Assembly (NCBI GenBank): GCA_964457585.1
Contig: CAYWFU010000006.1
Span: forward strand, 8,846-72,845
Length of the DNA: 64,000 nt
Source of the DNA: an uncultured bacterium
Lineage (GTDB): Bacteria; JACRDZ01
Direction of reading: 5' to 3'
Within the stretch, counting starts at the first letter, position 1; the number at the start of each line of letters is the position of its first letter. A program made the translations under genes and the position numbers. Below the pieces are notes generated by a model. The model searched no databases. It worked only from the letters and a program-made list of their open reading frames with translations, and was not told where the DNA came from. Positions 3,064-52,445 of this stretch are shown here, in pieces.

Positions 3064-4899
3064 ATGTTTTTTAAACCCAGGTTTTTAATAGTAATTTATA
3101 TGTTGCTATTATGTATTCCATCTCTGGTATTTTCTAACCCGGCATATTTTGCATCAAAAGAAGTAATAAAAAAAATACCTGATAAAGTTAAAGAAGATAT
3201 AGACAATATTTTTAAAAAATATAATTTTAATGCGCAATTTTCTAATTTAGAAAAAAAATCAGCAAAAAATTATCAGTATTCCAATAAAACAAATAAATGC
3301 GCAGCTTTTTTAGTCCGAGAACTGGGTCTTTATATTTACAATCTTGATAATGAAACGACAAAAAAAACTTTAAGACAAATTTTCCCTTTTACACGTCCTA
3401 CAAATAGCGGGGATGAAGATTTTTATGGTAATGGGGTAAATGTTAAGGAATATGCTACACAACATTTTCTCATTCATTATGTAAATACAACTAATAACTT
3501 ACATAGTGTACCTGCAAATGATAGTAATTATAACAAAATACCGGATATAATCGAAAATTATGCAGAAATATTTGAAGAATGCTGGAAGAAAGAAATTGAG
3601 CTTGAATATTCAGAACCAATACTTAATAATGACGGATATTATGATGTATATTTTTTAGATATGCAATCTTTTTTTGGCGATCAAGCACCTTTAGCTTATA
3701 CAGCTACTGATCCATTTTTAAACCATCCAATTCATTCTCCCACATATATAGCATTGGATAATGATTATGCTGATGGTAAGTATGGATATATAACATCTGA
3801 TAATGTGACAGATATAGTAAAAGTTACTTTTGCACATGAATTTTTTCATGCGATTCAACTTTCCTACAATTCCTATATTGATTCATGGTTTGCTGAAGCA
3901 TGCGCTACATGGATGGAAGATGTAATTTATGATGAAGTTAATGATTACTATTACTATTTGCCTGATTTTTATAATAATCCTCAATTTTCTTTAGAACATC
4001 TGGGAGACACTGAATCAGATTTTGTATATGAATATGGTGCATGTGTTTTCCCAAGATATTTATCTATAAAATATGATAAAGATATTATCAGAGAAATATG
4101 GGAATACACATATAATGATACTACTAAAATATATGATAATGGATTAGGAATACTTGGAATTAAAAATGTTCTTGATAAAAGAGGATTGTCTTTCGCATCA
4201 GTATTAGGTGATTTTAGAGTAGCCAGCTATTTTATTGGGGAAAATTATTCTGATAACTATGCTTCTAAATATTATAATGATGATGAAGTAAAAGGTTTTA
4301 ATATAGTACCGAAAATTGCTGACACTATAACTAAAATTGATTTTAAAGAATTTACTTCAGATTCTAAAATTTCTCCGCAGGAATATGGAGTATATTATAT
4401 TGAGTTAAAATCAAATTCCAATAAAAAAGCTGATATTAAAATTAATTTTAACGGTAGTTCAATTGCCAAATGGGCTGGAAAAATAATAAAATTCAAACAG
4501 GATAAGACTATAGAAATAAGTGATTTTGATTTTATTAATGACTATAATGCAAATATTGCAATTCAGGATTTTAATAGTATTTACTATAAAGCAATTTTGG
4601 TTATTTATGTTACTTCAGGGAATTCAAAAAATGAAGCATATGGTTTTTCTTTAACAAATAATACAAATAATATAACTGATACAACTACTACAACTGCTAC
4701 AAATGATACAAATAATAACATTAAATGCTTTATATCGCTTATTAATTCTGAGAATTTTATTCCAAATTCAACCATAACAGGTTTCAGAGATAAATATTTA
4801 ACTTCTAATATAGGTAAATATTTTATAAATTTATACTATAGATACTCTGCTTTTAATGAAAATAGATATATAAACTGTAAAATGGGTACTGTAAAATGA
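3064..4899 (+). CDS. Secreted zincin-like metalloprotease (MXAN_6640-like) with a C-terminal CFI-box-like sorting segment
   Basis: Signal peptide; HEFFHAIQ (HExxH) and WFAEACATWME; Thr/Asn linker, then KCFIS...FRDKYL...YYRYS. Confidence 0.65.
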   Translation: MFFKPRFLIVIYMLLLCIPSLVFSNPAYFASKEVIKKIPDKVKEDIDNIFKKYNFNAQFSNLEKKSAKNYQYSNKTNKCAAFLVRELGLYIYNLDNETTKKTLRQIFPFTRPTNSGDEDFYGNGVNVKEYATQHFLIHYVNTTNNLHSVPANDSNYNKIPDIIENYAEIFEECWKKEIELEYSEPILNNDGYYDVYFLDMQSFFGDQAPLAYTATDPFLNHPIHSPTYIALDNDYADGKYGYITSDNVTDIVKVTFAHEFFHAIQLSYNSYIDSWFAEACATWMEDVIYDEVNDYYYYLPDFYNNPQFSLEHLGDTESDFVYEYGACVFPRYLSIKYDKDIIREIWEYTYNDTTKIYDNGLGILGIKNVLDKRGLSFASVLGDFRVASYFIGENYSDNYASKYYNDDEVKGFNIVPKIADTITKIDFKEFTSDSKISPQEYGVYYIELKSNSNKKADIKINFNGSSIAKWAGKIIKFKQDKTIEISDFDFINDYNANIAIQDFNSIYYKAILVIYVTSGNSKNEAYGFSLTNNTNNITDTTTTTATNDTNNNIKCFISLINSENFIPNSTITGFRDKYLTSNIGKYFINLYYRYSAFNENRYINCKMGTVK

Positions 4900-5272: not shown

Positions 5273-6808
5273 ATGGGAAAAGTATTTTATATAACTACAC
5301 CTTTATATTATGTGAATGATGAACCTCATGTTGGTCATGCATATACTAATATTATTGCTGATACTCTTGCAAGATACCACCATTTATCAGGGGAAGATGT
5401 TTTTTTACTGACAGGTACTGATGAACACGGGCAGAAAATCGAACGTACTGCAAGTAAACTAAATGAAACTCCTCAGCATCTGGCTGATCGTCTGGTTATT
5501 GTTTTTAAAAAATTATGGGAAAAACTGAATATATCATATCAGGATTTTATCCGTACAACTGAGGGACGGCATGTAATGACTGTTGAAGTTGTTTTTGAAA
5601 AAATTCTTGCCAGCGGTGATATTTATAAAGGGCATTATGAAGGCTGGTACTGCACTCCATGCGAATCATTCTGGACTGAAACACAGCTTATAGAAAACAA
5701 ATGTCCGGATTGTAAAAGAGATGTAGAATTAGTAAAGGAAGAAAGCTATTTTTTTAAAATGTCTAAATATGCTGATTTACTTTTAAAATATATTGATGAG
5801 AATCTATATTTTATTGAACCTTTATCACGCCGTCTGGAAGTAGTTAATTTTATAAAGAGCGGACTTAAAGATTTAAGTATTACAAGGACAAGTTTCAGAT
5901 GGGGAATACCTGTTCCGCAGGATAAAGATCATGTAATATATGTCTGGTTCGATGCTTTATTGAATTATATTTCTGCTCCGGGTTATTTTAAGGATTACGA
6001 AAATTTTGAAAAAATATGGCCATGCGATGTTCATATTATTGGTAAAGATATTTTAAAATTTCATGCTGTTATCTGGCCGACTATTCTTCTTGCACTGGAT
6101 TTGCCTTTACCAAAAAAAATATTCGCGCATGGATGGTGGACAGTTGAAGGCAAAAAAATGTCAAAATCATTGGGTAATGTTGTTAATCCGTTTGAAATGT
6201 CAGATAAATACGGAGCAGATGCTTTTAGATATTTTTTGCTTCGGGAAGTATCCTTAGGTCTGGATGGAAATTTTTCAGAAACAGCTCTTATTCAGCGGTT
6301 CAACAGCGATTTAGCAAATGATTTAGGTAATTTACTGCACCGTACACTAAATATGGTTGAAAAATATTGCGAAGGAAAAGTTCCTGAAAATTTTGCGCAA
6401 AATGAAATAATAGATGAAGAATTGATAGATAAAGCAACCGGCTTATCAAGCGGGATACAAGATTATATATCTCATTTAAATTTCAGCGAACTTTTAGTAA
6501 GAATATGGGAAATTATCAGCAAAGCAAATAAATATATTGAAGTTACTGCTCCATATTCACTTGCTAAAAAGATAGAAAATAAAGAGAGACTTTTTACTAT
6601 TATGTATAATTTACTTGAAACCTTAAGAATAATATCAATTTATATTTATCCTTTTATGCCGCAAGCAGCAGAAAAAATGAAACAGCAGTTAGGAATTGAT
6701 AAAGCTTTTTCAGATATAAATATTAATGACGCTTCAAAATGGGGACTGATGATCTCAGGTAAAAAAATTAATAAAGGTGTCCCGATTTTTCCAAGAATTG
6801 AGGTTTGA
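5273..6808 (+). CDS. metG: Methionine--tRNA ligase (short form)
   Basis: HVGH (HIGH) and KMSKS motifs, CxxC zinc knuckle, YVWFDALLNY. Confidence 0.97.
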   Translation: MGKVFYITTPLYYVNDEPHVGHAYTNIIADTLARYHHLSGEDVFLLTGTDEHGQKIERTASKLNETPQHLADRLVIVFKKLWEKLNISYQDFIRTTEGRHVMTVEVVFEKILASGDIYKGHYEGWYCTPCESFWTETQLIENKCPDCKRDVELVKEESYFFKMSKYADLLLKYIDENLYFIEPLSRRLEVVNFIKSGLKDLSITRTSFRWGIPVPQDKDHVIYVWFDALLNYISAPGYFKDYENFEKIWPCDVHIIGKDILKFHAVIWPTILLALDLPLPKKIFAHGWWTVEGKKMSKSLGNVVNPFEMSDKYGADAFRYFLLREVSLGLDGNFSETALIQRFNSDLANDLGNLLHRTLNMVEKYCEGKVPENFAQNEIIDEELIDKATGLSSGIQDYISHLNFSELLVRIWEIISKANKYIEVTAPYSLAKKIENKERLFTIMYNLLETLRIISIYIYPFMPQAAEKMKQQLGIDKAFSDININDASKWGLMISGKKINKGVPIFPRIEV

Positions 6809-8184
6809 ATATGTTTTTCGATACACATGTTCATCTAGATGATAATAAATATAATAATGATAGAGATAATGTAATAAATAGAGCTTTAAAAGAAGATGTA
6901 AATTTATTTTTAAACGCAGGAATAGATACTAAAAGCAATATTGAATCAATAAAATTAGCTGAAAAATATAGTTTTATATATGCGGCATGCGGATTTCACC
7001 CTCATGATGCTTCAAAATTCACTGAAGAAGATTACGAGATAATAAAAAAATTGATATCAAATGAAAAAGTTATAGGCATAGGTGAAATTGGGCTTGATTA
7101 TTACAGAAATCTTTCTCCGAAAAATATCCAGCAGAATGTTTTTAAAAGATTTATTAATCTGGCTAAAGAATCAAAAAAACCTATAATTCTTCATAGCCGT
7201 GATGCTTTTGATGACACAATCCGGATTTTAGAGGAAACAAATGCAAAAGAAATTGGCGGGATTGCGCATTGTTTTTCAGGAACAATTGATATGGCAAATA
7301 AATTCCTGGATATGAATTTTTATATTTCTTTTGCAGGACAGATAACATTTAAAAATGCCAGGAATATGAAGGAATTAATAGAGCAAATACCAATGGATCG
7401 CATTTTAATCGAAACAGACTGTCCATATATTAGCCCTGAACCACGCAGAGGATCCAGAAATGAACCTTCCTTTGTTAAATATACAGCTCAGAAAATAGCA
7501 GAAATCAAGCTTCTTTCAGCGGAGGATGTAGGGCGTATTACTAGAGTTAATGCAATAAAACTTTTTAATCTTCCTATAAGTTTAAATCCAGCAATAGTAT
7601 ATCCTATAAGGGATTCGATATATCTAAATATTACTAATCGCTGCAGTAATGATTGTTATTTTTGTATACGCACAAAACAGGACTATGTTAAAGGTCATAA
7701 TCTGCGAATAAGCAGTGAGCCAACATCAGCGGAAATTATTAAAAATGTGGAGCCGTTAATTAAAAAATACAGGGAAGTGGTATTCTGCGGTTATGGAGAG
7801 CCGTTATTACGGCTTGATACAGTACTTGAAGTAGCTAATGCATTGAGAGATAAAAGTGTAAAATATATCAGAATAAATACAAACGGACAGGGAAATTTAT
7901 TTTACAATGAGAATATTGTCCCGAAATTTAAAGAAATTATTGATGAAATTTGTATAAGTTTAAATGCTTCTGATAAAGAAGCATATATGAAGATATGTCA
8001 CCCGGAATTCGGTGAAAGAACTTTTGATGAAGTATTAAATTTTATAAAAGAATGCAAAAAGGTTATCCCGAAAGTTGTAATAACGTTTGTGGAATTGCCG
8101 GAAATAAATTTAGATGCTTGCAGAGCTATAGCGCAGAAGCTGGACGTAGCATATAAAATCAGGAAACTGGATGTAGTTGGGTGA
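6805..8184 (+). CDS. TatD-family nuclease fused to a TatD-associated radical SAM domain
   Basis: DTHVH, GEIGLDY and ETDCPY TatD motifs; C-terminal NITNRCSNDCYFC (CxxxCxxC) and VFCGYGEP. Confidence 0.9.
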   Translation: MNMFFDTHVHLDDNKYNNDRDNVINRALKEDVNLFLNAGIDTKSNIESIKLAEKYSFIYAACGFHPHDASKFTEEDYEIIKKLISNEKVIGIGEIGLDYYRNLSPKNIQQNVFKRFINLAKESKKPIILHSRDAFDDTIRILEETNAKEIGGIAHCFSGTIDMANKFLDMNFYISFAGQITFKNARNMKELIEQIPMDRILIETDCPYISPEPRRGSRNEPSFVKYTAQKIAEIKLLSAEDVGRITRVNAIKLFNLPISLNPAIVYPIRDSIYLNITNRCSNDCYFCIRTKQDYVKGHNLRISSEPTSAEIIKNVEPLIKKYREVVFCGYGEPLLRLDTVLEVANALRDKSVKYIRINTNGQGNLFYNENIVPKFKEIIDEICISLNASDKEAYMKICHPEFGERTFDEVLNFIKECKKVIPKVVITFVELPEINLDACRAIAQKLDVAYKIRKLDVVG

Positions 8185-8938: not shown

Positions 8939-9094
8939 ATGAAAAAGATACAATTCATTTTTTTATTTATATTATTTTTTTTAAGTTTCAAAAGTATTAT
9001 TTTTGCTGCAAAAGAATTAGAAATAGATATAACCAGAGATAATATCGAAAAAATAAAAATAACATGTCAGGAATGTCATGGAGCAATGAAATGA
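8939..9094 (+). CDS. 51-aa putative exported mono-heme peptide (not in ORF track)
   Basis: GAGGT RBS 5 nt upstream; MKKIQFIFLFILFFLSFKSIIFAAKELEIDITRDNIEKIKITCQECHGAMK; signal peptide plus CxxCH. Confidence 0.6.
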   Translation: MKKIQFIFLFILFFLSFKSIIFAAKELEIDITRDNIEKIKITCQECHGAMK

Positions 9095-9157: not shown

Positions 9158-12100
9158 GTGATATCTATGAATAAAAAGTTAGTTATAATTTTACTTTTTA
9201 TTTTAATTATATTTTTATATTCTAAAAATTCTTTTGCAGTTGACATCACAGATGAAGAATGTCTAAGATGTCATATAATGAAAAATCCTCTTTTGCCTTT
9301 TGAGGAAAATAAACTGATTGAATTTAAAGAAGAATATGCAGCAATGGATTTTGGCGTTGCAGATGATATGATGTGTTATAGCTGTCATAATGGCTCTGTT
9401 GACGACCATCGTCATATTACATGGTTTGGACAAAGGCATAAAACTGATTTAAAACCAACACCCGAGATAAAAATCCCTCAAGGATTTCCTCTTAAAGAGG
9501 GGAAAATATATTGCGGCACATGTCATAGTCCGCATACTTTACCAAATAAAACATGGCTTCGAGCCTTAAATATCAATTCTTCTTATTGCAGAGAATGTCA
9601 TAGAACAAAAACAGGTAATACTCCAACAGGTAATCATCCATCGGAAACAGTTACTGAGAAGAAACAAGAAAAGATTATTGATGCAGGCGGTAGATATGGA
9701 GTTAATGAACAGGGAAAAGATATAATTATCTGTCAGACATGTCATGTAATTCATGGTTCACCGCCGGGAGAGAGGCTTTTAGTAGCTAGAAATGAAGGTG
9801 AAGGAATAGGTAATTCAGCTTTATGTGAAATCTGTCATACTAATAATCCAAGTAAACCTGAACGCGGCACTGGGATAGAAACGCATGCTACAAATGTAAG
9901 AGCAAAAAAAGCAATAATACCTCTTATATGGGGTAATGATACACCTGTTGTGGTGAGTTATAATGGAAATATTGTTTGCAGAACCTGTCATCAGCCGCAT
10001 AGGGCAAAAGATCAGCAATATTTACTTGTAGAAAAAAATGAAATAGGGCAGTTTTGTTCAAAGTGTCATCCAAGAGAATTTGGAAGAGGAAAAGGTAAAG
10101 ATAATATAGGAACGCATCCTTTAGGAATAAAACTCTCGCAGGGTATGGAAATTGAACCTCAATCCAGAATTAAACTTTTTGAAGGGACTATAACCTGCAA
10201 TAGCTGTCATACTGCTCATAATGCATTTAATACCGGCTCTGATGAAGGAATAGAAAAGGAAGAAATGCTGGGAATCTCAGAATTAAAAAAATTAGAAGAT
10301 ACAACCCTAATATCAGATACAACAAAAATAAAAAAAAGCGCTTTGTTTGATACAACATTCCAGATGGATACCACTAAATTAGATACAACTCAGGTTAAAC
10401 AGATTAAAAAGAAACAGTCATTATTAGTATATTCTAATAAAAATAATTATATATGTGAAAAGTGCCATACTAATAAAGTCGCACGAACACTTAAAGAAGC
10501 TGAAGCTAAAGGAACTCATCCTGTAAATATAACAAGTTCAAAAGTAACCATTCCTAAAATAATATTAAAAAAAGGCGGCAGGTTTGGAAAAATTAGAAAT
10601 AAACCGGTAATTATTTGTACTACATGTCATAAAGTTCATGGCGGAGAAATTGGAACTCCAAATTTAATTATTACAGACGCAGATGCAAGAATCTGTGGGT
10701 ATTGTCATTCAAATGTTAATGTTGGTTCAATAAGTGAAGCTGCAATTATCAGTACTCATCCGGTAAATATCAAACCAAAGAAACTGGAGATACCTGAAGA
10801 GATTATTAAAGCAGGCGGTAAATTAGGACTTAAAGGTGAGATTATTTGCTACACCTGTCATGGTGTTCATAAATCACGTGAAGCAACCAAAATATTGGTA
10901 ATTTCAAATGTTGAATCAAGTGATATTTGTGTTGTCTGTCATCCAAAGCAAAAAGTAGTTGATAATACTGAGCATAATTTAATCATCATTGCACCAAAAG
11001 AAGAAAATATTAAGGGAGATCGTATAAGAGAAGCAGGAGTTTGCGGCGCATGTCATATTGCTCATGGAGGCAAAGGTGCTAAAGTGTGGGCAAAAAATGT
11101 TCCTCCGATTAAGCCGGGTGAAGACCCTGTAGGAAAATTATGTTTAAGCTGTCATCAAAAAGGTCAGGTAGGAGAAAAAAAATTAGTTGGCGGATTCAGT
11201 CATCCGACTAATTTTGATATTGAGCGAGTGTCAGGAGAAACTGATTTGCCTTTATTTCTTGGAGAAGGCGTAAGAGTATACGATTCATTTATCATGGTAG
11301 ACGGCAAAAAAGTTATTGATAAATCAAAAAGAAAAGGCAAGGTAATGTGCGCTACCTGTCATGATGTGCATCAATGGGACCCGACAGATGAAAAAGCTGG
11401 CAGCAGAGTTGATACTGAAGGAGATGGAAGGAATAGTTTTTTACGGAAGAGAAATATTAAAAATTTTTTATGTATAGAATGTCATAAAGGTGAAACAACA
11501 ATTCTTGATACAGATCATGATCTTAATATTTCCGGCCGCTCGGAAAAAAATGTTCAAGGAAAAACAGTAATTGAAGATGGAGCATGTTCTGCATGTCATC
11601 TTATGCATAATGGTACAGGACCTAAAATCTGGTCGCGTAAAATACCGCCTGAAATTGAAAAAGAAGGTATTATCGCTAAATTATGCAAAACATGTCATAT
11701 TAAAGGGCAGATGGCTGAAAAAAAGGCAATTACAAAATACAGTCATCCAACAGACAGATCTATTAAATTAGTTGATAAAACAACGCGTTATCCGCTTTAT
11801 GATTCTTTTGGACAGAGGTATTTTAATAAACCATTGCTTGAAGCTTTAAAAACAGGTAAAGATATTGAAAAGTATTACAATACATCAGGGCTTGTAACCT
11901 GTGGAACCTGTCATGATGTTCATTTGTGGAACTATAAAAATCCCGATGACAGACCAAAGTCTAATATTGAAGGGACCGGGCTTAACAGTTTCCTGCGCGG
12001 TACAAAGGACAATACTTCAAATTTCTGTAAAGATTGTCATGAAGATAAATTTAAAATTGAAAAAACTGAACATGATATGGCTGTTGTTGAGAAAGATATT

Positions 12101-15100
12101 GTTAAAAAAGATATCGTTAACTCACAGGGGAAAACGATTCGTGATGAGGGGATATGCAGTGCGTGTCATTTAATTCATAATGGTAATGGGTTATATATGT
12201 GGGCAAGAGAAAATATTCCTGATGGGGACAGTGTAATGACACTTATCTGTACCGGCTGTCATAATAGAGGACAGATGGGTGAAAAAAAATCAACCGGGAA
12301 CCATAGTCATCCATGTGATTCACCAATAACAGACTGGAGAGTATCGCCGACATTGCCATTATATATTAGAGGACGAAAAGATCCTGATGGTAATATTGCA
12401 TGTTCCACCTGTCATAATTCACATGTATGGGAACCGATAATACAGGATTACGGGCCTGGTAAAAATACTGATGGTACGGTTTTAAACAGCTTTCTTAGGA
12501 TTCCAAATGATAGGAAATCTGCTTTATGCGGAAATTGTCATTTTGAAAATGTTCTTATTGTGGGGACAAAACATGATTTAAATCTCACTGCGCCAAAAGA
12601 AAAAAATGTAGCAGGGGAAACTGTTGCTGAATCAGGACCATGCGGTTCATGTCATTTAACGCATAATGCTCTGGAAGTTAAGCTCTGGTCCAAAGTCCCG
12701 GGTAAAATCGAAGGTGCAACAGAAGAAAAGGATCTTTTAACTGCTCTATGTAAAAGCTGTCATACAAAAGGAGGCCTTGCTGAAAAGAAGGAGATTATTG
12801 GATATAATCATCCAATAAATATTAAACAGATTGAAGCAGGATTGCCAACCAGCTTGCCTCTTTATGATGAGATGGGGAAGAAAAAATTTGATGGAAAAAT
12901 AACATGCAGTACCTGTCATGATCCTCATCGCTGGACACCCGGAGTAGATAAAGGCGGGCCTGGTAAAAAAACTGAAGGTGATGGACGTGACAGTTTTCTC
13001 AGGCTTGACAACCGTAAAGTTTCAGCTCTTTGCGTGGATTGTCATCAACGAGAAGGGTTGGTAGTCAATACTGATCACGACCTTTCTGTTACTGTTCCTG
13101 ATGAGGAAAATGTTGTTAAAGAAACTGTTGGAGTATCTGGAGCATGTTCTGCATGTCATGTTATGCACAATGGGAATGACATAAGACGATGGGCTAAACC
13201 TCTTGGCCCGGGAGATGATTATATTACCCAGCTATGTCACAGCTGTCATTCCGAAGGTAAATGCGCTGAGTCTAAAATAGGTGTTTATACACATTCCATT
13301 GGAGTTAAAATGCAGAAAGGCAGAACTACAACATTTCCTCTTTATACTAAAGAAGGTAAAAAGCAGAAAGATACTCTTATTACATGTGTAACATGTCATT
13401 ATTCTCATCAATGGAGTCCAACTCAATTTGAAAAAAATGTACTAAGTAAAGGATTATTTAGTTTTGAAAATATAAAAAGTAAAGTAATAGGAAATGTAGG
13501 TTATCCATCGGGTTCTTTTGTATACATAGATACTATTGATTCTTTTAAACCTGAAATTGGACAGCAATACGTAGTTTTTAAGAAAGGGAAAATAATTGCC
13601 CGTTGCATAGTGGATAAAATAAATCCTTTTTCTAAAACTCTAGAAGTGTTTGCCAGGGTAGCAGAATATGACCCAAATGAAAAAATAGAAAAAGGTGATT
13701 ATGTTGTTGAGAAAAAAAAGCTATCCAAAGGACTTGAAGGCAATGGTAGAAATAGTTTCCTGCGTAAACCTAATGATGAATCCACCAGTTTATGTTTTGA
13801 TTGCCATACAGAAAAAGAAACAATTGTAGGAACAGATCATGACTTTCGAGTCACTGCGCCAAAAGAAAGAAATATGATTGGCGAAACTGTATTTGACGGA
13901 GGATTATGTTCAGCATGCCACAGGTCGCATCAGGGAGCGTCAGTTTATATTTCTGCAAAACAGGTTGCTCCTAATCCTAAAGGAATAATTTATTCACCTA
14001 TCTGTTATGGATGTCATTTTCCAGGTGGAGCAGCAGAAAATAAAAGACTTGATGTGCATCATAAAATTATAACTTTCCCAACAGATGAAGAGATTAACGA
14101 ATATATTCAGAAGAATGGAAAAATGAAAGAATCAATGCGATTACAAATTCCTGATAAAAAATATGGGCTTGTTTTATATAATGAAGACGGAGAACTTGAT
14201 CAGGGGGATGCATTTAAAAAGAAAGTTGTTACCTGTTCTACGTGTCACAATGAACATGTCTGGGACCCAAATAATCTAGAAGATAAACATCCATGGGATT
14301 CTGCCACCAATTTTTATGCAAAAGCTGTTGAAGGTACAGATAAAAATAGTTATCTCAGATCACGCAATGATAAATGGCAATTATGCAATATATGTCATTT
14401 AGCAACAGTGCATTTGGAAACAGAAGAAATGATACGGCGTCTTGGACGTGATATTAAGACTATTGATTCTGCCCAGAAAATACTGGAAGAAAAAAAGAAA
14501 AAAGATGCTGAACTGGAAACGAAAAAGAAAGAGAAATTTGAAGAAGAAGAAAAAAAAGAAGAGATGGGAAAAGTTGCAATAATAAAATCCGTTAATAAAG
14601 ATTTAGATAGTCCCGATTATTTTTTAATTATGAAGCTAATTGGAGAAAATGCATTAAATAAAAAATCTCCAGGAAAATTTATTATCGGGATTAAAGAAAA
14701 TTTTGAAGGCAGTCAATGGGAAGAATATCGTAAAGAAGTCCAATATCGTATATCCATGGATACTGTTGCAAAAAATATATATATTAAATTTCAAGACAAA
14801 TTGGGGAATTACTCAGAATTATATTCTTTGGAGTTACCTCCAATTGTAATATCAATAAAACCTGATGAAGAAAAAAGCAAATTACCGAAACTTATACTTG
14901 GATTAAATGTTCGTAATGCAAAATCTATTAAGGTGGGAACAGATAAATATCTTGAAAAAGACAAATGGCTGCCATTTGAATCAACTTATACCTATATTTT
15001 TCCGGATGATAGTGCATTTGATAAAATTTATATTCAATTTAAGGATGATAAAGAAAATAAAACAGAAATAACAGGTATGTATACACCTGAAGATTTAATT

Positions 15101-16912
15101 AAACCTCGAGTTAGAAAATATGTTTATCGTGAACCAATTAAAATCATGGAAAATTTTGTAATTAGTATCGTTTTTAGTGAAACTTTAAATCCCAATATTA
15201 ATCCAAAGATAAAGATAACAAATCTGGATGAGGGTAAATCACCGCAATTACCAGAAGTGGGAACATATATTTCCACCAATGAGGAAAATGATACTTATAT
15301 GCTGGAGGGGATTAAGCTTACAAAGGAAATGGGCGGCAGATGGCTTATTTCTGTTGAAAGCGCTGAAGGTGTTATTAGAAATGTTATGGAACCGGTTGCT
15401 GATAAAATCATATTTTTTGATACAAGAGATAAAACACTTGATTTTTATAATTCAGTAAAATTTAAAATTAAAGAGGGAGAAAAAACACAAAATCCAGATA
15501 TAACTTTGCTTATGGAAGGCAAAGGCGCATATCAAATGATGATAAGCGAAAATGATCCTGCTTTTGAAAATTGTATGTGGGAACCTTTTGTTAGTGAAAA
15601 GAAATTTTTGATTACTCCAATTGTGGGGGAGAAAACTATTTATGTAAAATTCCGTAATGATGAAAAACTTGTTTCAGATGTATTTAATGAATCAATAGCA
15701 TTTATGAAAACTTCAAAAGAGGTTGATGTCTTATCAGGGAGTTTAATAGAAGATAAGACTTTAACTAAAGATGGCAGTCCTTATTATATCGTTGGTACAG
15801 TAAAAGTGGAACGTGGTGTTACGTTAACAATTGAACCGGGCGTTAAGTTATTATTTAGTGACTTTATGCGCGGAGATAAAGTTATTAGTAAAGGGAATCT
15901 GATTATAAGAGGTAATATAATCGCTAAAGGAACTCAAACTGATAATATTTTCTTTACATCTAAAAAAGAAAACCCGGAAATTGGCGATTGGGGAATGATT
16001 AGAATTGATAGAAATGTTACTGACAAGAAAAATGTTTTTGAAAATTGTTATATTACTTATGCAGAATACGGGATATGGGTTGAGACAGATAATCCAATTA
16101 TTACAAATTCAACATTTGAATTAATTAAAAATGATGCAATACATTTTGAAAGAGATTGTCGGGGTCAAATAAATGATAATACTATCAGAAATAATGGCGG
16201 AAGCGGTATTTTTTTAAGAGAAGCTTCTCCTGATATTTATAAAAATTCTATTGAAAATAATAAAGATGGAATAATATGCATTAATTCTGCGCTCCCTAAA
16301 ATAACGGATAATTTTTTAAGCAGTAATAATACCGCTATATCCTGTGAGAATATGGCAGCTCCAAGAATTATTAATGCAGTTGTTGAAAATAACAGAATCG
16401 GGATTAGAATTATGTCTTATTCATTCCCAACAGTTGTTAATTCAAATATCTCAGAAAATAAAGAATTTGGTATTTTTATCAGTGAGTCATGTCCTATGAT
16501 TTATAAAAATATTATACAAAAAAATAAAATTGGAGTATTTGTTGAAAAGGACTATAGAGATTTTAAAATTTCTCTTAACAATATTATGGAAAATACCGAA
16601 TATAATTTAAAAATAACAGACTATTGGCGTGATCTTTATGCTTCTGAAAATTTCTGGGGTTTTCAAGAAAAGAATGAAATAAAGAAAAAAATATATGATA
16701 AGGAAAACTATGAAAAAGAGCCAAAAGAGGGAGAGAAAAAAGAAGATGAAATGCCAATCTTTGATTTCTTATCAACAGAAGATGTTATGGCAGATAAAAT
16801 GAAAGAAGATGCTGGTAAAAGCACACAGCTTGAGTTTATTGAAAAAGTTTTTGGTGTTGTAAGATATTCACCTTTCTCCTTATTTAAGAACAATAATGCC
16901 GGGGTGCAGTAA
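9158..16912 (+). CDS. Giant multiheme c-type cytochrome (38 CxxCH) with C-terminal Ig-like repeats and a right-handed beta-helix
   Basis: Signal peptide; 38 CxxCH by manual count between 9260 and 14398; alternating CxxCHxxH / CxxCH pairs; C-terminal SPYYIVGTVKVERGVTLTIEPGV followed by N/G-rich beta-helix repeats. Confidence 0.92.
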   Translation: MISMNKKLVIILLFILIIFLYSKNSFAVDITDEECLRCHIMKNPLLPFEENKLIEFKEEYAAMDFGVADDMMCYSCHNGSVDDHRHITWFGQRHKTDLKPTPEIKIPQGFPLKEGKIYCGTCHSPHTLPNKTWLRALNINSSYCRECHRTKTGNTPTGNHPSETVTEKKQEKIIDAGGRYGVNEQGKDIIICQTCHVIHGSPPGERLLVARNEGEGIGNSALCEICHTNNPSKPERGTGIETHATNVRAKKAIIPLIWGNDTPVVVSYNGNIVCRTCHQPHRAKDQQYLLVEKNEIGQFCSKCHPREFGRGKGKDNIGTHPLGIKLSQGMEIEPQSRIKLFEGTITCNSCHTAHNAFNTGSDEGIEKEEMLGISELKKLEDTTLISDTTKIKKSALFDTTFQMDTTKLDTTQVKQIKKKQSLLVYSNKNNYICEKCHTNKVARTLKEAEAKGTHPVNITSSKVTIPKIILKKGGRFGKIRNKPVIICTTCHKVHGGEIGTPNLIITDADARICGYCHSNVNVGSISEAAIISTHPVNIKPKKLEIPEEIIKAGGKLGLKGEIICYTCHGVHKSREATKILVISNVESSDICVVCHPKQKVVDNTEHNLIIIAPKEENIKGDRIREAGVCGACHIAHGGKGAKVWAKNVPPIKPGEDPVGKLCLSCHQKGQVGEKKLVGGFSHPTNFDIERVSGETDLPLFLGEGVRVYDSFIMVDGKKVIDKSKRKGKVMCATCHDVHQWDPTDEKAGSRVDTEGDGRNSFLRKRNIKNFLCIECHKGETTILDTDHDLNISGRSEKNVQGKTVIEDGACSACHLMHNGTGPKIWSRKIPPEIEKEGIIAKLCKTCHIKGQMAEKKAITKYSHPTDRSIKLVDKTTRYPLYDSFGQRYFNKPLLEALKTGKDIEKYYNTSGLVTCGTCHDVHLWNYKNPDDRPKSNIEGTGLNSFLRGTKDNTSNFCKDCHEDKFKIEKTEHDMAVVEKDIVKKDIVNSQGKTIRDEGICSACHLIHNGNGLYMWARENIPDGDSVMTLICTGCHNRGQMGEKKSTGNHSHPCDSPITDWRVSPTLPLYIRGRKDPDGNIACSTCHNSHVWEPIIQDYGPGKNTDGTVLNSFLRIPNDRKSALCGNCHFENVLIVGTKHDLNLTAPKEKNVAGETVAESGPCGSCHLTHNALEVKLWSKVPGKIEGATEEKDLLTALCKSCHTKGGLAEKKEIIGYNHPINIKQIEAGLPTSLPLYDEMGKKKFDGKITCSTCHDPHRWTPGVDKGGPGKKTEGDGRDSFLRLDNRKVSALCVDCHQREGLVVNTDHDLSVTVPDEENVVKETVGVSGACSACHVMHNGNDIRRWAKPLGPGDDYITQLCHSCHSEGKCAESKIGVYTHSIGVKMQKGRTTTFPLYTKEGKKQKDTLITCVTCHYSHQWSPTQFEKNVLSKGLFSFENIKSKVIGNVGYPSGSFVYIDTIDSFKPEIGQQYVVFKKGKIIARCIVDKINPFSKTLEVFARVAEYDPNEKIEKGDYVVEKKKLSKGLEGNGRNSFLRKPNDESTSLCFDCHTEKETIVGTDHDFRVTAPKERNMIGETVFDGGLCSACHRSHQGASVYISAKQVAPNPKGIIYSPICYGCHFPGGAAENKRLDVHHKIITFPTDEEINEYIQKNGKMKESMRLQIPDKKYGLVLYNEDGELDQGDAFKKKVVTCSTCHNEHVWDPNNLEDKHPWDSATNFYAKAVEGTDKNSYLRSRNDKWQLCNICHLATVHLETEEMIRRLGRDIKTIDSAQKILEEKKKKDAELETKKKEKFEEEEKKEEMGKVAIIKSVNKDLDSPDYFLIMKLIGENALNKKSPGKFIIGIKENFEGSQWEEYRKEVQYRISMDTVAKNIYIKFQDKLGNYSELYSLELPPIVISIKPDEEKSKLPKLILGLNVRNAKSIKVGTDKYLEKDKWLPFESTYTYIFPDDSAFDKIYIQFKDDKENKTEITGMYTPEDLIKPRVRKYVYREPIKIMENFVISIVFSETLNPNINPKIKITNLDEGKSPQLPEVGTYISTNEENDTYMLEGIKLTKEMGGRWLISVESAEGVIRNVMEPVADKIIFFDTRDKTLDFYNSVKFKIKEGEKTQNPDITLLMEGKGAYQMMISENDPAFENCMWEPFVSEKKFLITPIVGEKTIYVKFRNDEKLVSDVFNESIAFMKTSKEVDVLSGSLIEDKTLTKDGSPYYIVGTVKVERGVTLTIEPGVKLLFSDFMRGDKVISKGNLIIRGNIIAKGTQTDNIFFTSKKENPEIGDWGMIRIDRNVTDKKNVFENCYITYAEYGIWVETDNPIITNSTFELIKNDAIHFERDCRGQINDNTIRNNGGSGIFLREASPDIYKNSIENNKDGIICINSALPKITDNFLSSNNTAISCENMAAPRIINAVVENNRIGIRIMSYSFPTVVNSNISENKEFGIFISESCPMIYKNIIQKNKIGVFVEKDYRDFKISLNNIMENTEYNLKITDYWRDLYASENFWGFQEKNEIKKKIYDKENYEKEPKEGEKKEDEMPIFDFLSTEDVMADKMKEDAGKSTQLEFIEKVFGVVRYSPFSLFKNNNAGVQ

Positions 16913-28103: not shown

Positions 28104-28697
28104 ATGAAATCGAATTTGATTAAAATTTTTTGTTTTTTGTATTTTTTATTTTCTTTTCTTATTATCTTTGGCGAGGAAGATAATCCTGATAAAAAATTAT
28201 TTGAACAGAAATGCAGTTTATGCCATACAATTGAAAGGCCTTTATCAAAGAAAAAAACTTCAGAGGATTGGAGAACTACTGTAGAAACAATGCGTAAAAA
28301 AAATACAAAACATATTAATGAAGATGAAGCAATAATAATTGCAAATTATCTTATCTCTACCCGCGGTCAGCCGGAAATTAATAAAGTTAAGGATCCTAAT
28401 AATTTAACAGAACTGGAAATGAAACATGCGCCAGTAGTCACAATTACCTGGGATAATCCTGAAAAAGGTGAAGTAACAATATCAGTAGAAGTGGGAAAGA
28501 CACATCACCCAATGGGAAAAGATCATTATATTAAATTTATTGAAATTTTTATTGATCATAATTCTATTATTAAAAAAATTCTTACACCTGAAGATAAACC
28601 AGTTATGGAATTTAAAACGAAAATTGCAGAAGGAGCAAGTATTACTGCGCTTATAGAATGCAACAAGCATGGTTTATGGGAAGGTGGAATCAGATAA
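28104..28697 (+). CDS. Exported mono-heme cytochrome c fused to a superoxide reductase (desulfoferrodoxin/neelaredoxin-like) domain
   Basis: Signal peptide; KCSLCH...W..TVETM; then KHAP, HPM, HYI and CNKHGLW, giving all 4 His + Cys SOR iron ligands. Confidence 0.85.
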   Translation: MKSNLIKIFCFLYFLFSFLIIFGEEDNPDKKLFEQKCSLCHTIERPLSKKKTSEDWRTTVETMRKKNTKHINEDEAIIIANYLISTRGQPEINKVKDPNNLTELEMKHAPVVTITWDNPEKGEVTISVEVGKTHHPMGKDHYIKFIEIFIDHNSIIKKILTPEDKPVMEFKTKIAEGASITALIECNKHGLWEGGIR

Positions 28698-45599: not shown

Positions 45600-45995
45600 T
45601 TAAGGATTATTTCTTTTAACAATATATTTAACATTTTTTAGATTTTTAAAATGTTCGTCCTGCGTCCATAAAGTCGCATTATATTTTAAAGTAATTGCAT
45701 AAATTATACTATCTGCCATAGGAATTTTATAATTATAACTTATTTTTGCGGCTTGTAAAGAAATAGAATCGTCAATATTTTCTATTTGATATTTTCGTAA
45801 TTGAGCTATTGTTTGAATTGCAGTATCTTCGTTTACTTCTATAAGGATTTTTTTAAACATTTCATAAATAATAATAACAGGAACTATTATTTCCCATTTC
45901 TTATCATATATAATTTTCGCAAAAATATCTGCATTTGGACCATCAGCAAAATATTCCAACCAGCAGTTTGTATCAATAATTATAATATTATTCAT
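45600..45995 (-). CDS. VapC PIN-domain toxin
   Basis: IDTNCWLEYF, E..K, ADSIIYA, TQDEHF. Confidence 0.88.
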   Translation of the reverse strand: MNNIIIIDTNCWLEYFADGPNADIFAKIIYDKKWEIIVPVIIIYEMFKKILIEVNEDTAIQTIAQLRKYQIENIDDSISLQAAKISYNYKIPMADSIIYAITLKYNATLWTQDEHFKNLKNVKYIVKRNNP

Positions 45996-48447: not shown

Positions 48448-48675
48448 ATGAAAATTGCAGCAGGAGAATTTAAAACAAAATGTCTTAAATTAATGGATCA
48501 TGTCCAAAAATATCATGAAGAGATTGTCATTACAAAATTTGGGAAATCTGTTGCAAAATTAAGCCCCATTGCAGAGGAGACACCAAAATCTTTATTTGGT
48601 TTTATGAAAGATTCTCTTGTTATAAAAGAAGATATCGTAAAATCAATTGGTGAGAAATGGAATGCCGATGAATGA
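48448..48675 (+). CDS. Phd/YefM-family antitoxin
   Basis: IAAGEFKTKCLKLMD.V....EEIVITKFGKSVAKL. Confidence 0.9.
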   Translation: MKIAAGEFKTKCLKLMDHVQKYHEEIVITKFGKSVAKLSPIAEETPKSLFGFMKDSLVIKEDIVKSIGEKWNADE

Positions 48676-49096
48676 CTTCAAAGAACCAATAGTTTTAGAT
48701 ACACATGTTTGGATATGGTTATTGACAGGTGATAAACAAATAGAAAATTCTAAATGTTTGTCTTATATTGAAAATGCGGTTAAATACTCAAATATTAAAA
48801 TATCAGCTATTTCAGTTTGGGAAATAGGTATGCTTGAAACTAAAGGAAGAATTAAATTCCCAGTTGATTGTTTAGATTGGGTCAATAAAGCGTTAAATGC
48901 ACCGGGCATATCTTTAGAACCGCTTACCCCGGAAATTGCCATTGAAAGCAGCCGTTTGCCTGGAAAATTCCATGGCGATCCGGCGGACAGAATAATTGCC
49001 GCCACTACCAGAAAATTAGGAGCAGTCTTAATAACCCGCGATAAAAATATCATTTCTTATGGAAAACAAAATCTTTTGAAAGTGATACCTGCTTAG
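48659..49096 (+). CDS. VapC PIN-domain toxin
   Basis: LDTHVWIW, SAISVWEIGML, HGDPADRIIAAT, LITRD. Exact start is uncertain (ORF track gives 48647). Confidence 0.85.
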   Translation, partial: GMPMNDFKEPIVLDTHVWIWLLTGDKQIENSKCLSYIENAVKYSNIKISAISVWEIGMLETKGRIKFPVDCLDWVNKALNAPGISLEPLTPEIAIESSRLPGKFHGDPADRIIAATTRKLGAVLITRDKNIISYGKQNLLKVIPA

Positions 49097-51847: not shown

Positions 51848-52372
51848 ATGTTAAAAAATGATATCGATAAAGAGGTAGAAGTCCGGACAGGAATAAATGT
51901 CTTCACCTGTTATCAATGCGGGAAGTGTTCTGCAGGATGTGTTTTTGCTCAATTTATGGATGCTCCTCCTCATTTACTCATGCGTTATTTGCAATTGAAT
52001 CTAAAAGAAAAAATTTTTTCATCCAATACTGTCTGGAGATGCGGAGCATGTATTACCTGTTCAGTAAGATGTCCTCGAAAAATAGATGTTCTTGCAGTTA
52101 TAAATACTGTAAGAACATTGATCACAGAGGAAAAAATATTTCCTCATGAAGAGGATGTGCATTTATTTGATGAAATTTTTTTAGATAATATTGCTAAAAA
52201 TGACAGACTCCATGAATTTGGGGCTGTATTTGATTTTAATCTTAAAAGCGGAAAATATTTTAAAGATATATCTCTTTTCCCAATTTTAATTGAAAAAGGA
52301 AAATTATCTTCTAAAAGTGAAAAAGGGCGTACTCAGAAAATTGCAGATGTAATAAATAAAATTAGGGATTAG
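51848..52372 (+). CDS. hdrC: Heterodisulfide reductase subunit C-like
   Basis: CYQCGKCSAGC and CGACITCSVRCP 4Fe-4S motifs. Confidence 0.88.
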   Translation: MLKNDIDKEVEVRTGINVFTCYQCGKCSAGCVFAQFMDAPPHLLMRYLQLNLKEKIFSSNTVWRCGACITCSVRCPRKIDVLAVINTVRTLITEEKIFPHEEDVHLFDEIFLDNIAKNDRLHEFGAVFDFNLKSGKYFKDISLFPILIEKGKLSSKSEKGRTQKIADVINKIRD

Positions 52373-52445
52373 GAAGTATAATGCAGTAAGTTAGTATTCT
52401 TATAAACTCTGACTCTTTGACTCGATTTTTTATAAAGGATTAATT

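What the first reader, a model, noticed from the sequence alone, without database searches (positions are those of the whole stretch)
9158..14398. 38-heme cytochrome built from seven diheme units plus six tandem tetraheme modules
Seen: 38 CxxCH (manual count). Hemes 1-14 form CxxCH / CxxCHxxH pairs. Hemes 15-38 are six copies of a module HD(L)...CxACHxxH...W...CxxCH..G....K....HP...LPLY...CxTCHxxHxW...EG.G.NSFLR...CxxCH. Sec signal peptide, no lipobox, and no porin or quinol-oxidase gene adjacent. Known: very large multiheme cytochromes act in extracellular electron transfer in metal reducers and ANME archaea. Inference: a single-chain modular heme wire in an otherwise housekeeping neighbourhood.
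Basis: partly seen in the sequence, partly recalled or inferred. Interest (0 to 1): 0.8.

Follow-up and report, generated by a model that had tools for sequence, protein, structure and literature searches.

The report
Single-chain OmcE-like 38-heme wire protein

Summary
ORF 9158-16912 (+) has exactly 38 CxxCH motifs, a Sec-type signal peptide without a lipobox, and six tandem tetraheme modules that are 34-48% identical to each other.

The gene does not end at 14398. It runs to 16912 (2584 aa). The missed 837 aa hold a Lys/Glu-rich spacer, four beta-sandwich domains and a right-handed beta-helix.

The tetraheme module is homologous to OmcE, the Geobacter/Desulfuromonas nanowire subunit. These are the best PDB hits (7TFS E=3e-9, 9YUQ E=4e-8). 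The match is collinear over all four CxxCH motifs, all four distal histidines and the HDL/LW/LPL(F/Y)/FLR motifs.

In 448 of 461 module junctions across the family, 10 or 11 residues separate one module's last heme motif from the next module's first histidine. That argues for a rigid continuous wire rather than beads on a string.

Orthologs with the same architecture exist: 73-75% identity in Candidatus Desantisbacteria MAGs, and 39% in another MAG with 37 hemes. Relatives carry up to 9 modules (48 hemes). Flanking genes are housekeeping and are not conserved between relatives.

Best reading: a secreted, pre-assembled heme wire of about 30 nm, tethered by a glycan-binding tail. Function and location are inferred. 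I rate it a new variant of a known kind.

The parts
9158..16912 (+). Whole ORF, 2584 aa from the GTG start. An alternative ATG start lies at 9167 (2581 aa, the database version P0001). The protein mass is about 290 kDa before hemes.
9158..9238 (+). Sec-type signal peptide (aa 1-27, likely cleavage after SFA). It contains no Cys and no lipobox.
   Evidence: sequence reading
9239..10942 (+). N-terminal 14-heme segment (aa 28-595). It is built from doubled-CXXCH diheme units of the form CxxCHxxH ... (F/L)L(R/V) ... CxxCH ... (T/N)HP. These units match the heme 2 to heme 3 half of the module profile.
   Evidence: weak PDB hit to a GSU1996 fragment, 3ouq, E=9e-4
10220..10441 (+). Low-complexity insertion rich in 'DTT' (about 75 aa), lying between heme 9 and the LLV...CxxCH half of its diheme unit. 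I read it as a loop, not necessarily a break in the heme chain.
   Evidence: inference
10943..11485 (+). OmcE-like tetraheme module 1 (aa 596-776, hemes 15-18).
11486..12040 (+). OmcE-like tetraheme module 2 (aa 777-961, hemes 19-22).
12041..12541 (+). OmcE-like tetraheme module 3 (aa 962-1128, hemes 23-26).
12542..13045 (+). OmcE-like tetraheme module 4 (aa 1129-1296, hemes 27-30).
13046..13807 (+). OmcE-like tetraheme module 5 (aa 1297-1550, hemes 31-34). It carries a non-heme insert of about 95 aa (nt 13421-13717) between heme 3 and the FLR motif. The ortholog P0005 has an equally long module 5.
   Evidence: the insert has no Pfam hit
13808..14398 (+). OmcE-like tetraheme module 6 (aa 1551-1747, hemes 35-38). 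This terminal module has HH in place of the SHP motif, plus extra His at aa 1711 and 1752.
14399..14575 (+). Lys/Glu-rich spacer (17 K/R and 17 D/E in 63 aa). It may be a single alpha-helix or a coiled coil.
   Evidence: the structural reading is inference
14576..15706 (+). Four beta-sandwich (FN3/Ig-like) domains. Three belong to one repeat type that ends in IY(I/V)(K/Q)F.
   Evidence: Only the last two domains were modelled. The IYxKF-type motif also occurs in large heme-free proteins of other bacteria.
15728..16636 (+). Right-handed parallel beta-helix (aa 2191-2493).
   Evidence: Pfam Beta_helix and NosD hits. The AlphaFold2 model has pLDDT above 90 here. Foldseek finds polysaccharide-active beta-helices: 2uve, AlgG 4nk8, AlgE 2pyh, NosD 7o0y.
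16637..16909 (+). C-terminal tail (aa 2494-2584), acidic and modelled with low confidence. I recognised no sorting signal.
8939..9094 (+). Small upstream ORF of 51 aa with a signal-peptide-like N-terminus and one CxxCH (CQECH). It resembles the 5' end of the large gene. I did not find it upstream of the relatives.

Best explanation
The gene encodes a secreted, all-bis-His multiheme cytochrome that works as a pre-assembled electron wire in a single polypeptide.

**How it is built.** After Sec export and heme attachment, a 14-heme lead-in made of diheme units continues into six covalently joined copies of an OmcE-type tetraheme unit. OmcE is the unit that Geobacter and Desulfuromonas polymerise non-covalently into nanowires.

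**Why the chain should be continuous.** Each module supplies four CxxCH motifs and four distal His. The first His of each module sits a fixed 10 residues after the previous module's last heme motif. I infer that this His plays the role of the histidine that, in OmcE filaments, is donated across the subunit interface. The 38 hemes would then form one chain.

**Length.** At the OmcE rise of 34 A per four hemes, the six modules span about 20 nm. The full chain would be about 30 nm if the lead-in is equally extended.

**The tail.** A charged spacer, four beta-sandwich domains and a polysaccharide-enzyme-like beta-helix would tether one end to a glycan. That glycan could be the cell's own envelope or matrix, or a partner or substrate surface.

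**Function.** The wire would carry respiratory electrons between the cytoplasmic-membrane side and an extracellular acceptor or donor.

**Shown versus inferred.** Shown: motif content, module homology to OmcE, junction invariance, tail fold class, orthologs, and lack of conserved partner genes. Inferred: heme packing, the role of the junction His, cellular location, direction of electron flow, and the ligand of the tail.
For: - There are 38 CxxCH motifs and 42 other His in the heme region.
- The six modules are 34-48% identical with invariant ligand residues.
- A profile of module pairs finds the OmcE filament subunits as the two best PDB matches: 7tfs_A E=3.2e-9 and 9yuq_N E=3.9e-8. The match is collinear over hemes 1-4 and the KHDL, LW, LPLF and FLR motifs. 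The 'DHP' of 9yuq aligns with the module's 'SHP'.
- A single family fragment, used alone as query, also hits 7tfs best (E=4.4e-4).
- OmcE and OmcS filaments use a His from the adjacent subunit to ligate an interfacial heme (PMC9473688, PMC12954529, PMC12203936). The OmcE rise is 34 A (PMC12954529).
- Junction length: 409 of 461 junctions in the family have exactly 10 residues and 39 have 11. All five junctions between modules in the window protein, and the one from heme 14 into module 1, have 10.
- Architecture recurs: P0005 has 37 hemes, six modules including a long module 5, and the same tail. P0003 and L003 are 73-75% identical. P0039, P0055, P0084 and the L004 protein also combine hemes with the beta-helix.
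- Tail model and fold matches. The tail type also occurs in giant heme-free proteins, which fits a surface or adhesion module.
Against: - No structure supports the packing. The AlphaFold2 model of two modules (built without hemes) had pLDDT 60.8 and gave no Foldseek match.
- The window holds no porin, outer-membrane secretion component, quinol dehydrogenase or cytochrome maturation gene, and relatives have no conserved neighbours. The electron input and the export route are therefore unknown.
- The envelope type of the organism (a Desantisbacteria-like lineage) is not known.
- I could not confirm which OmcE histidine is donated across the interface, because the OmcE structure paper is not held.
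- The closest species representative carries a broken copy, with a frameshift and deletion in module 4. This could be an assembly error or a sign that the gene is dispensable.
Confidence: 0.55

Rival explanations
1. It is a periplasmic electron reservoir or conduit (a 'capacitor'), like the Geobacter poly-c7 cytochromes of the GSU1996 type. The protein would stay between the membranes, store tens of electrons and bridge inner-membrane and outer-membrane redox partners. The beta-helix would act in the periplasm, as NosD does.
For: - The protein has only a Sec signal. I see no lipobox and no recognisable outer-membrane sorting signal.
- Pfam Cytochrome_C7 and Cytochrom_c3_2 match, and the N-terminal part hits a GSU1996 fragment weakly.
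- Pfam NosD matches the tail, and NosD itself is periplasmic.
- No porin gene is nearby.
Against: - The module's closest solved relatives are extracellular filament subunits, not periplasmic c7 proteins.
- The NosD equivalog model scores 27 bits against a cutoff of 300, and there are no nosZFY neighbours.
- A rigid chain of about 30 nm plus a tail of about 90 kDa is as long as or longer than a typical periplasm (inference).
- FN3 plus beta-helix tails are typical of surface or secreted glycan-binding proteins, and they occur here in giant heme-free proteins.
Confidence: 0.2
2. It is a subunit that polymerises further. The end modules would keep an unsatisfied heme and a spare histidine, as OmcE monomers do, so that whole 38-heme proteins stack head-to-tail into micrometre-long filaments decorated with beta-helix side arms.
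For: - The modules are homologous to polymerising OmcE.
- OmcE interfaces depend on a donated His (PMC9473688).
- The junction His pattern is kept at the first module, where TEHNL follows heme 14 after 10 residues.
Against: - The two ends are not complementary OmcE-like faces. The N-terminus is a different 14-heme diheme segment, and the C-terminal module continues directly into a non-heme region of about 840 aa.
- Module 6 carries extra His (HH at 1634-1635, H1711, H1752). These could cap the last heme internally, like the 'stopper' idea in bioRxiv 10.1101/2025.10.22.684050.
Confidence: 0.1
3. It is a redox-linked polysaccharide-active enzyme. The beta-helix would be a catalytic lyase, epimerase or hydrolase, and the heme chain would feed or remove electrons for an oxidative reaction on a glycan or on organic matter.
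For: The best fold matches of the tail are enzymes: GH28 exopolygalacturonase, and the alginate epimerases AlgG and AlgE.
Against: - Sequence identity to those enzymes is only 9-15%, and no family-specific Pfam or NCBIfam model passes its cutoff beyond the generic Beta_helix and NosD models.
- Those enzymes do not use redox chemistry.
- The His count fits bis-His coordination of every heme, which leaves no obvious open catalytic site.
Confidence: 0.05
4. It is an artefact: an assembly chimera of repeated cytochrome genes, or a decaying pseudogene.
For: - Tandem repeats are prone to misassembly.
- The ortholog in the Desantisbacteria representative genome (L003) is split by a frameshift and lacks about 62 aa in module 4.
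Against: - The window ORF is uninterrupted over 7.75 kb.
- The modules are only 34-48% identical as protein, and the DNA shares only short 60-75% repeats.
- An independent ortholog at 39% identity has the same six modules, the same long module 5 and the same tail.
Confidence: 0.03

Closest known systems
OmcE tetraheme nanowire subunit (Geobacter sulfurreducens, PDB 7TFS; Desulfuromonas soudanensis, PDB 9YUQ)
   Same: - Four CxxCH motifs and four distal His in the same order.
- Shared non-ligand motifs: (T/K)HDL, LW, LPL(F/Y) and FLR.
- Similar unit size: about 168-aa modules against a 232-aa deposited chain.
- These are the best PDB hits of the module profile (E=3e-9 and 4e-8).
- The concept is the same: a linear, insulated heme chain.
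   Different: - OmcE is a free subunit that polymerises non-covalently through a donated His. Here six units are fused in one chain with a fixed 10-residue junction.
- They are preceded by 14 other hemes and followed by a non-heme tail.
- The OmcE gene cluster (two multiheme cytochromes, two beta-propeller lipoproteins, a large beta-barrel; bioRxiv 10.1101/2025.10.22.684050) is absent here.
- The host is a Desantisbacteria-like lineage. Desantisbacteria is not among the five phyla for which that preprint reports OmcE homologs (Thermodesulfobacteriota, Pseudomonadota, Aquificota, Campylobacterota, Nitrospirota).
Uncharacterised 'cytochrome c3 family / predicted CXXCH cytochrome' proteins with tandem copies of the same module (e.g. 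P0002, 48 hemes, hydrothermal-vent Deltaproteobacteria MAG)
   Same: - The same tetraheme module and the same N-terminal 8-heme lead-in.
- The same junction length.
- A stand-alone gene among housekeeping genes.
   Different: - Most members have no C-terminal non-heme tail.
- Module number varies: 9 by motif count in P0002 against 6 here, and 1 to 6 complete profile matches in other members.
- None of these proteins is characterised or named.
MtrC/OmcA/MtrF outer-membrane decaheme cytochromes (Shewanella)
   Same: Pfam Mtrc-MtrF_II-IV_dom matches the modules above its cutoff (107 bits, 7 stretches). The presumed role, electron transfer at or beyond the cell surface, is also shared.
   Different: There is no lipobox, no beta-barrel domains I/III and no adjacent MtrAB-type porin-cytochrome genes. 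The units here are tetraheme, not pentaheme. PDB sequence hits to OmcA/MtrC are only marginal (E about 0.1).
Large multiheme cytochromes fused to cell-surface domains: ANME archaeal cytochromes with S-layer domains (PMC9012536) and cell-surface cytochromes of a Gram-positive thermophile (PMC7829351). Both papers surfaced in one search but were not read; the comparison rests on my own knowledge.
   Same: The design principle is shared: a long heme chain and a non-heme surface or anchoring domain in one polypeptide, in organisms without a Geobacter-type nanowire cluster.
   Different: The anchoring domain here is FN3-like domains plus a polysaccharide-enzyme-like beta-helix, not an S-layer or SLH domain. 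The heme modules are OmcE-like. The lineage is bacterial and uncultured.
GSU1996-type poly-c7 periplasmic cytochromes (Geobacter)
   Same: Both are single-chain concatenations of small multiheme domains, and GSU1996 has been proposed as a natural 'nanowire' or electron store. There is a weak hit of the N-terminal segment to 3ouq (E=9e-4).
   Different: The repeat unit there is a triheme c7-type domain in a periplasmic protein of 12-27 hemes. Here the units are diheme and OmcE-like tetraheme, and the protein carries a large non-heme tail.

Membership tests
OmcE-type tetraheme nanowire cytochrome | Four CxxCH motifs plus four conserved distal histidines in a fixed order | tested here: met
   All six modules keep H(D), CxxCHxxH, CxxCH, (S)HP (a His-His pair in module 6), CxxCHxxH and CxxCH. 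The same residues align with 7tfs_A and 9yuq_N.
OmcE-type tetraheme nanowire cytochrome | Significant sequence similarity to solved OmcE subunits | tested here: met
   The module-pair profile scores 7tfs_A at E=3.2e-9 and 9yuq_N at E=3.9e-8. The next hits (NrfA) are at 2e-4. A single-sequence query gives E=4.4e-4.
OmcE-type tetraheme nanowire cytochrome | Free-standing subunit of roughly 220-230 aa as deposited, which polymerises non-covalently | tested here: not met
   The modules are internal parts of one 2584-aa chain.
OmcE-type tetraheme nanowire cytochrome | Gene cluster with two multiheme cytochromes, two beta-propeller lipoproteins and a large beta-barrel (bioRxiv 10.1101/2025.10.22.684050) | tested here: not met
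   Pfam scans of the window ORFs found none of these. Relatives also have unrelated flanks.
OmcE-type tetraheme nanowire cytochrome | Alternating parallel and T-shaped heme packing in a linear chain | tested here: inconclusive
   The AlphaFold2 model without hemes had pLDDT 60.8 and gave no Foldseek match. This needs heme-aware prediction or an experiment.
MtrC/OmcA/MtrF decaheme outer-membrane cytochromes | Pfam PF22113 (domains II/IV) match | tested here: met
   107 bits against a cutoff of 30, in 7 stretches.
MtrC/OmcA/MtrF decaheme outer-membrane cytochromes | Lipoprotein signal (lipobox Cys) | tested here: not met
   There is no Cys in the first 34 residues.
MtrC/OmcA/MtrF decaheme outer-membrane cytochromes | Adjacent MtrA/MtrB-type periplasmic decaheme and porin genes | tested here: not met
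   The neighbours are housekeeping genes.
NosD (nitrous oxide reductase maturation beta-helix protein) | Passes the NosD_copper_fam model (TIGR04247) and has nosZ/nosFY context | tested here: not met
   27 bits against a cutoff of 300, and no nos genes in the window. Only the generic Pfam NosD and Beta_helix repeats match.
DmsE/MtrA-type periplasmic decaheme cytochromes | Passes TIGR03508 (decahem_SO) | tested here: not met
   87 bits against a cutoff of 192, covering aa 31-228 only.
Poly-c7 (GSU1996-type) cytochromes | Repeats of a triheme c7-type domain | tested here: inconclusive
   Pfam Cytochrome_C7 matches and 3ouq hits weakly. However, the repeat units here hold two or four hemes.

The most novel reading that the evidence does not exclude
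This is a natural single-polypeptide cytochrome nanowire. OmcE-type subunits, which elsewhere must polymerise outside the cell through a donated histidine, are here genetically concatenated with a fixed 10-residue junction. They form a wire of defined length (about 30 nm) carrying its own glycan-binding anchor. The protein belongs to a candidate phylum (Desantisbacteria-like) for which my literature search found no report of multiheme cytochromes. If true, it would link polymerising nanowire subunits and giant multiheme cytochromes as two outcomes of one module. It would also show that long-range electron transfer can work without a porin-cytochrome or nanowire-secretion gene cluster next to the gene.
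Probability: 0.4. Interest if true: 0.75.

Novelty: new variant of a known kind. Interest (0 to 1): 0.62.

Why it matters
Cytochrome nanowires (OmcS, OmcE, OmcZ) are the current model for micrometre-scale microbial electron transport. How they evolved, how their length is set and how they are exported are open questions.

- **Evolution.** A family in which the OmcE unit is fused head-to-tail with an invariant junction gives a direct evolutionary and structural comparison. The covalent junction should mimic the filament interface.
- **Engineering.** The family offers a genetically encoded wire of defined length for protein-electronics work, which is now attempted with engineered fusions.
- **Ecology.** Uncultured groundwater lineages without recognisable EET gene clusters may still exchange electrons with their surroundings.
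- **Annotation.** The module is currently annotated only as 'cytochrome c3 family protein'. Recognising it as OmcE-like would re-label several hundred proteins: 812 clusters at 50% identity match the module at E<=1e-3.

Tried and rejected
- **AlphaFold2 of modules 3-4.** With a 26-row alignment the mean pLDDT was 60.8 and Foldseek against the PDB found nothing, so the model says nothing about the fold.
- **Source contig.** Looking up the window's own protein to recover its contig failed: it is not on record. The window genome is also not among the GTDB representatives. I therefore could not search the rest of the genome for ccm/ccs, porins or secretion systems.
- **First homolog search.** A k-mer-based search with the whole protein gave only itself and one relative. 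The exhaustive profile search was needed to see the family.
- **Synteny.** None of 11 window neighbours is found next to the relatives in L001-L008.
- **Pfam, permissive thresholds.** Scans of the module-5 insert, the first part of the tail and the 611-aa neighbour found nothing.
- **OmcE structure paper.** It is not held, so the identity of the donated His in OmcE comes only from secondary sources (heme 2, adjacent subunit).
- **Readings considered and rejected.** MtrC membership (no lipobox, no partner genes), true NosD (score far below cutoff), and assembly chimera (diverged repeats, and an independent ortholog with the same layout).
- **Other scans.** Rfam and tRNA scans gave no taxonomic marker.
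- **Literature.** A search for Desantisbacteria together with multiheme cytochromes found no paper.

Full report
**1. The observation**

The ORF that starts at 9158 (GTG; a database version starts at the ATG at 9167) does not stop at 14398. It runs to 16912 and encodes 2584 aa. A regex count gives exactly 38 CxxCH motifs, all within aa 35-1747, and no variant heme motifs.

Cutting the sequence after each fourth motif from heme 14 onward gives six modules: aa 596-776, 777-961, 962-1128, 1129-1296, 1297-1550 and 1551-1747. They align with 34-48% pairwise identity and 30 invariant columns. The DNA shows the same period, with spacings of 480-552 nt and one of 849 nt at the module that carries an insert. 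The DNA repeats are only short 60-75% matches, so an assembly collapse or chimera is unlikely.

In hemes 1-14, CxxCHxxH alternates with plain CxxCH from heme 3 to heme 14, which gives six clean diheme units. Hemes 1 and 2 form an atypical pair. The N-terminus is a Sec-type signal peptide with no Cys and so no lipobox.

The heme region holds 42 histidines besides the 38 in the motifs. That is just enough for bis-His ligation of every heme, and the tail adds only 2 more His.

**2.

The last 837 aa carry no heme motif. They contain:
- a Lys/Glu-rich spacer (17 basic and 17 acidic residues in 63 aa);
- four beta-sandwich domains, three of them one repeat type that ends in IY(I/V)(K/Q)F;
- a right-handed beta-helix (Pfam Beta_helix 88.6 bits and NosD 56.5 bits in the scan of the tail alone).

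An AlphaFold2 model of aa 1964-2540 has a mean pLDDT of 79 and above 90 in the helix. Its PDB fold matches are polysaccharide-active beta-helices, some with an FN3 domain in front: GH28 exopolygalacturonase 2uve, the alginate epimerases AlgG and AlgE, and NosD. Sequence identity is 9-15%. The NosD equivalog model fails by a wide margin (27 bits against a cutoff of 300).

The same kind of tail occurs in giant proteins with no heme motif in the parts available (L006, L008). That fits a general surface or adhesion module.

**3. What the module is**

Pfam calls the modules Paired_CXXCH_1, Cytochrome_C7, Cytochrom_c3_2 and Mtrc-MtrF_II-IV_dom. All of these are generic multiheme labels.

A profile of the six modules, searched against 1.84 billion representative proteins, finds 812 clusters at E<=1e-3 and 210 at E<=1e-30, with 2 to 14 matched stretches per protein among the 150 listed. 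Where these proteins have names, they are only 'cytochrome c3 family protein', 'predicted CXXCH cytochrome family protein' or 'hypothetical'. They come from Thermodesulfobacteriota, Gammaproteobacteria, Nitrospirota, Methyloprofundus, Firestonebacteria and unnamed MAGs.

A 26-row alignment of consecutive module pairs, searched against all PDB sequences, gives two top hits:
- 7tfs_A, the Geobacter sulfurreducens OmcE filament subunit (E=3.2e-9);
- 9yuq_N (E=3.9e-8). I assign this chain to the Desulfuromonas soudanensis OmcE bundle (bioRxiv 10.1101/2025.10.22.684050). That assignment is my inference from the molecule name, the 16 chains and the OmcE-like sequence.

The next hits (NrfA) are five orders of magnitude weaker.

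The alignment is collinear over the whole unit:
- OmcE 'KHDL...CVFCHTPHN...LW...CMSCH' aligns with the module's 'T.HDL...C.ACH..HN...W...C.SCH'.
- 'LPLF...CGSCHKVH' aligns with 'LPLY...C.TCH..H'.
- 'FLR...LCLGCH' aligns with 'SFLR...LC.DCH'.
- In 9yuq, 'DHP' aligns with the module's 'SHP'.

Significance rose with profile depth: E=0.07 for 7tfs with six sequences against 3e-9 with 26 rows. One family fragment on its own already hits 7tfs best (E=4.4e-4). I take this as homology, not motif coincidence.

**4. The junction**

In OmcE and OmcS filaments, one heme at the subunit interface is ligated by a histidine from the neighbouring subunit (PMC9473688, PMC12954529). For OmcE this is heme 2 (PMC12203936).

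In the window protein, the first histidine of every module (T.HD) lies exactly 10 residues after the last CxxCH of the preceding module. The same spacing separates heme 14 from module 1. Across 461 junctions in the family, 409 have 10 residues and 39 have 11.

The deposited OmcE chain ends one residue after the aligned 'CLGCHK' (aligned to 231 of 232 residues), and its KHDL histidine is residue 31 of that chain. Where its signal peptide is cleaved is not known to me. Joining OmcE subunits end to start could therefore give a spacing similar to the 10 residues seen here, but I could not compute it.

I infer that the covalent junction reproduces the filament interface and that the junction histidine corresponds to the donated one. 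This was not tested. I could not read the OmcE structure paper and had no coordinates.

The terminal module 6 differs from the others. It has His-His where the others have SHP, and extra His at 1711 and 1752. That would suit a capped end and recalls the 'stopper' idea discussed for OmcE.

The two large insertions sit in equivalent loops between a CxxCHxxH and the following (F/L)L(R/V)...CxxCH. These are about 75 aa between hemes 9 and 10 and about 95 aa in module 5. They need not break the heme chain.

**5. Size**

OmcE rises 34 A per tetraheme subunit (PMC12954529). Six modules would span about 20 nm. All 38 hemes at the same pitch would span about 32 nm. This is an estimate by analogy, not a measurement.

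**6. Relatives and context**

- **P0003**: 73% identity, N-terminally truncated, from an NCBI MAG labelled Poribacteria.
- **L003**: from the Candidatus Desantisbacteria representative genome, 75% and 67% identity in two pieces. These are orthologs with the same tail. The L003 copy is interrupted by a frameshift and lacks about 62 aa in module 4.
- **P0005**: 2427 aa, 37 hemes, 39% identity. It has the same six modules, the same long module 5 and the same beta-helix tail. The layout is therefore conserved and is not an assembly accident.
- **P0039, P0055, P0084 and the L004 protein**: these combine 9-22 of the same hemes (P0055 not counted) with more beta-sandwich repeats and the beta-helix.
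- **P0002**: 48 hemes, 9 modules by motif count, no tail.

The window's LepA is 84% and 81% identical to LepA of the same two MAG groups and at most 66% identical to anything else. The organism is therefore an uncultured Desantisbacteria-like bacterium with about 31% G+C.

The flanks in the window are housekeeping genes:
- upstream: thymidylate kinase, DNA polymerase III delta', PSP1, MetRS, a TatD-radical SAM fusion, a YacP-like protein;
- downstream: cytidylyltransferase, RNase HII, DeaD, NadE, PurA.

The relatives sit among different housekeeping genes, and none of the window's neighbours recurs there. No porin, quinol dehydrogenase or heme-lyase gene occurs among the scanned ORFs of the 64 kb.

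**7. Mechanism and rivals**

The best-supported reading is a secreted, pre-assembled OmcE-like wire tethered by a glycan-binding tail, serving electron exchange beyond the cytoplasmic membrane (confidence 0.55). The rivals are:
- a periplasmic store or conduit (0.2);
- a subunit that polymerises further (0.1);
- a redox-linked polysaccharide enzyme (0.05);
- an artefact (0.03).

The weak points are the missing structure, the unknown envelope type, and the unknown electron input and export route.

**8. Novelty**

The following are all known: giant multiheme cytochromes, OmcE nanowires, OmcE-like proteins with extra hemes (bioRxiv 10.1101/2025.10.22.684050; 8-13-heme 'OmcE-like' proteins in peat MAGs, bioRxiv 10.64898/2026.05.27.727921), and cytochromes fused to surface domains.

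My literature searches found no description of three things: tandem OmcE-type modules with a fixed junction, their fusion to an FN3 plus beta-helix tail, or their presence in Desantisbacteria. I rate the finding a new variant of a known kind, with interest 0.62.

Noticed in passing
window 8939-9094 (+): A 51-aa ORF lies just upstream of the large gene: MKKIQFIFLFILFFLSFKSIIFAAKELEIDITRDNIEKIKITCQECHGAMK. It has a signal-peptide-like N-terminus and one CxxCH at the C-terminal end. It resembles the start of the large protein (…AVDITDEECLRCH). It could be a tiny monoheme peptide or a remnant of a 5' duplication. I did not find it upstream of the relatives in L001-L004.
   Followed up: partly
window 28104-28697 (+): A 197-aa protein has a CxxCH (CSLCH) region with weak cytochrome c-like hits, followed by a desulfoferrodoxin (superoxide reductase) domain. 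This looks like an unusual heme c plus SOR fusion. It is also a second candidate c-type cytochrome in the window, which would imply that heme attachment machinery exists in the genome.
   Followed up: partly
window 6805-8184 (+): One ORF fuses a complete TatD-type nuclease/hydrolase domain (aa 5-255) to a radical SAM domain (aa 274-444).
   Followed up: no
window 51848-55298 (+): Three adjacent genes resemble heterodisulfide reductase subunits: a 4Fe-4S dicluster protein, a CCG-domain protein and an HdrA-like flavoprotein with ferredoxin domains. Together with the SOR domain, this points to an anaerobe.
   Followed up: no
window 55713-55858 and 56150-63774 (-): A cas gene block (Cas4, Cas1, Cas6b, Csc2-like) is interrupted by AAA_14/DUF4143 ATPase and PIN-domain genes. 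Next to it, only one Rfam-level CRISPR repeat (CRISPR-DR7, 55716-55748) and one degenerate copy were found, so there is no real array within the window.
   Followed up: partly
window 3064-4899 (+): A 611-aa secreted protein has an HEFFH (HExxH) zinc-protease-like motif, a Thr/Asn-rich stretch near the C-terminus, and no Pfam match even at permissive thresholds.
   Followed up: partly
L003 4248-11866 (Candidatus Desantisbacteria JACQWU010000236.1): The closest ortholog in a representative genome is split into two ORFs of 1195 and 1340 aa. A frameshift and a deletion of about 62 aa fall inside module 4. This is either a repeat-induced assembly error or a decaying copy.
   Followed up: partly
L006 2-5170 and L008 2-8323 (MAG 'bacterium isolate Dive96_bin2.216'): Very large ORFs (over 1700 and over 2700 aa, cut by contig ends) share the beta-sandwich and beta-helix tail but have no CxxCH in the parts available. 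The tail is therefore a mobile module used with and without hemes.
   Followed up: partly
window 45600-45995 (-), 48647-49096 (+), 59447-59848 (-): Three PIN-domain (VapC-like toxin) genes are scattered through the second half of the window. I did not look for their antitoxin partners.
   Followed up: no
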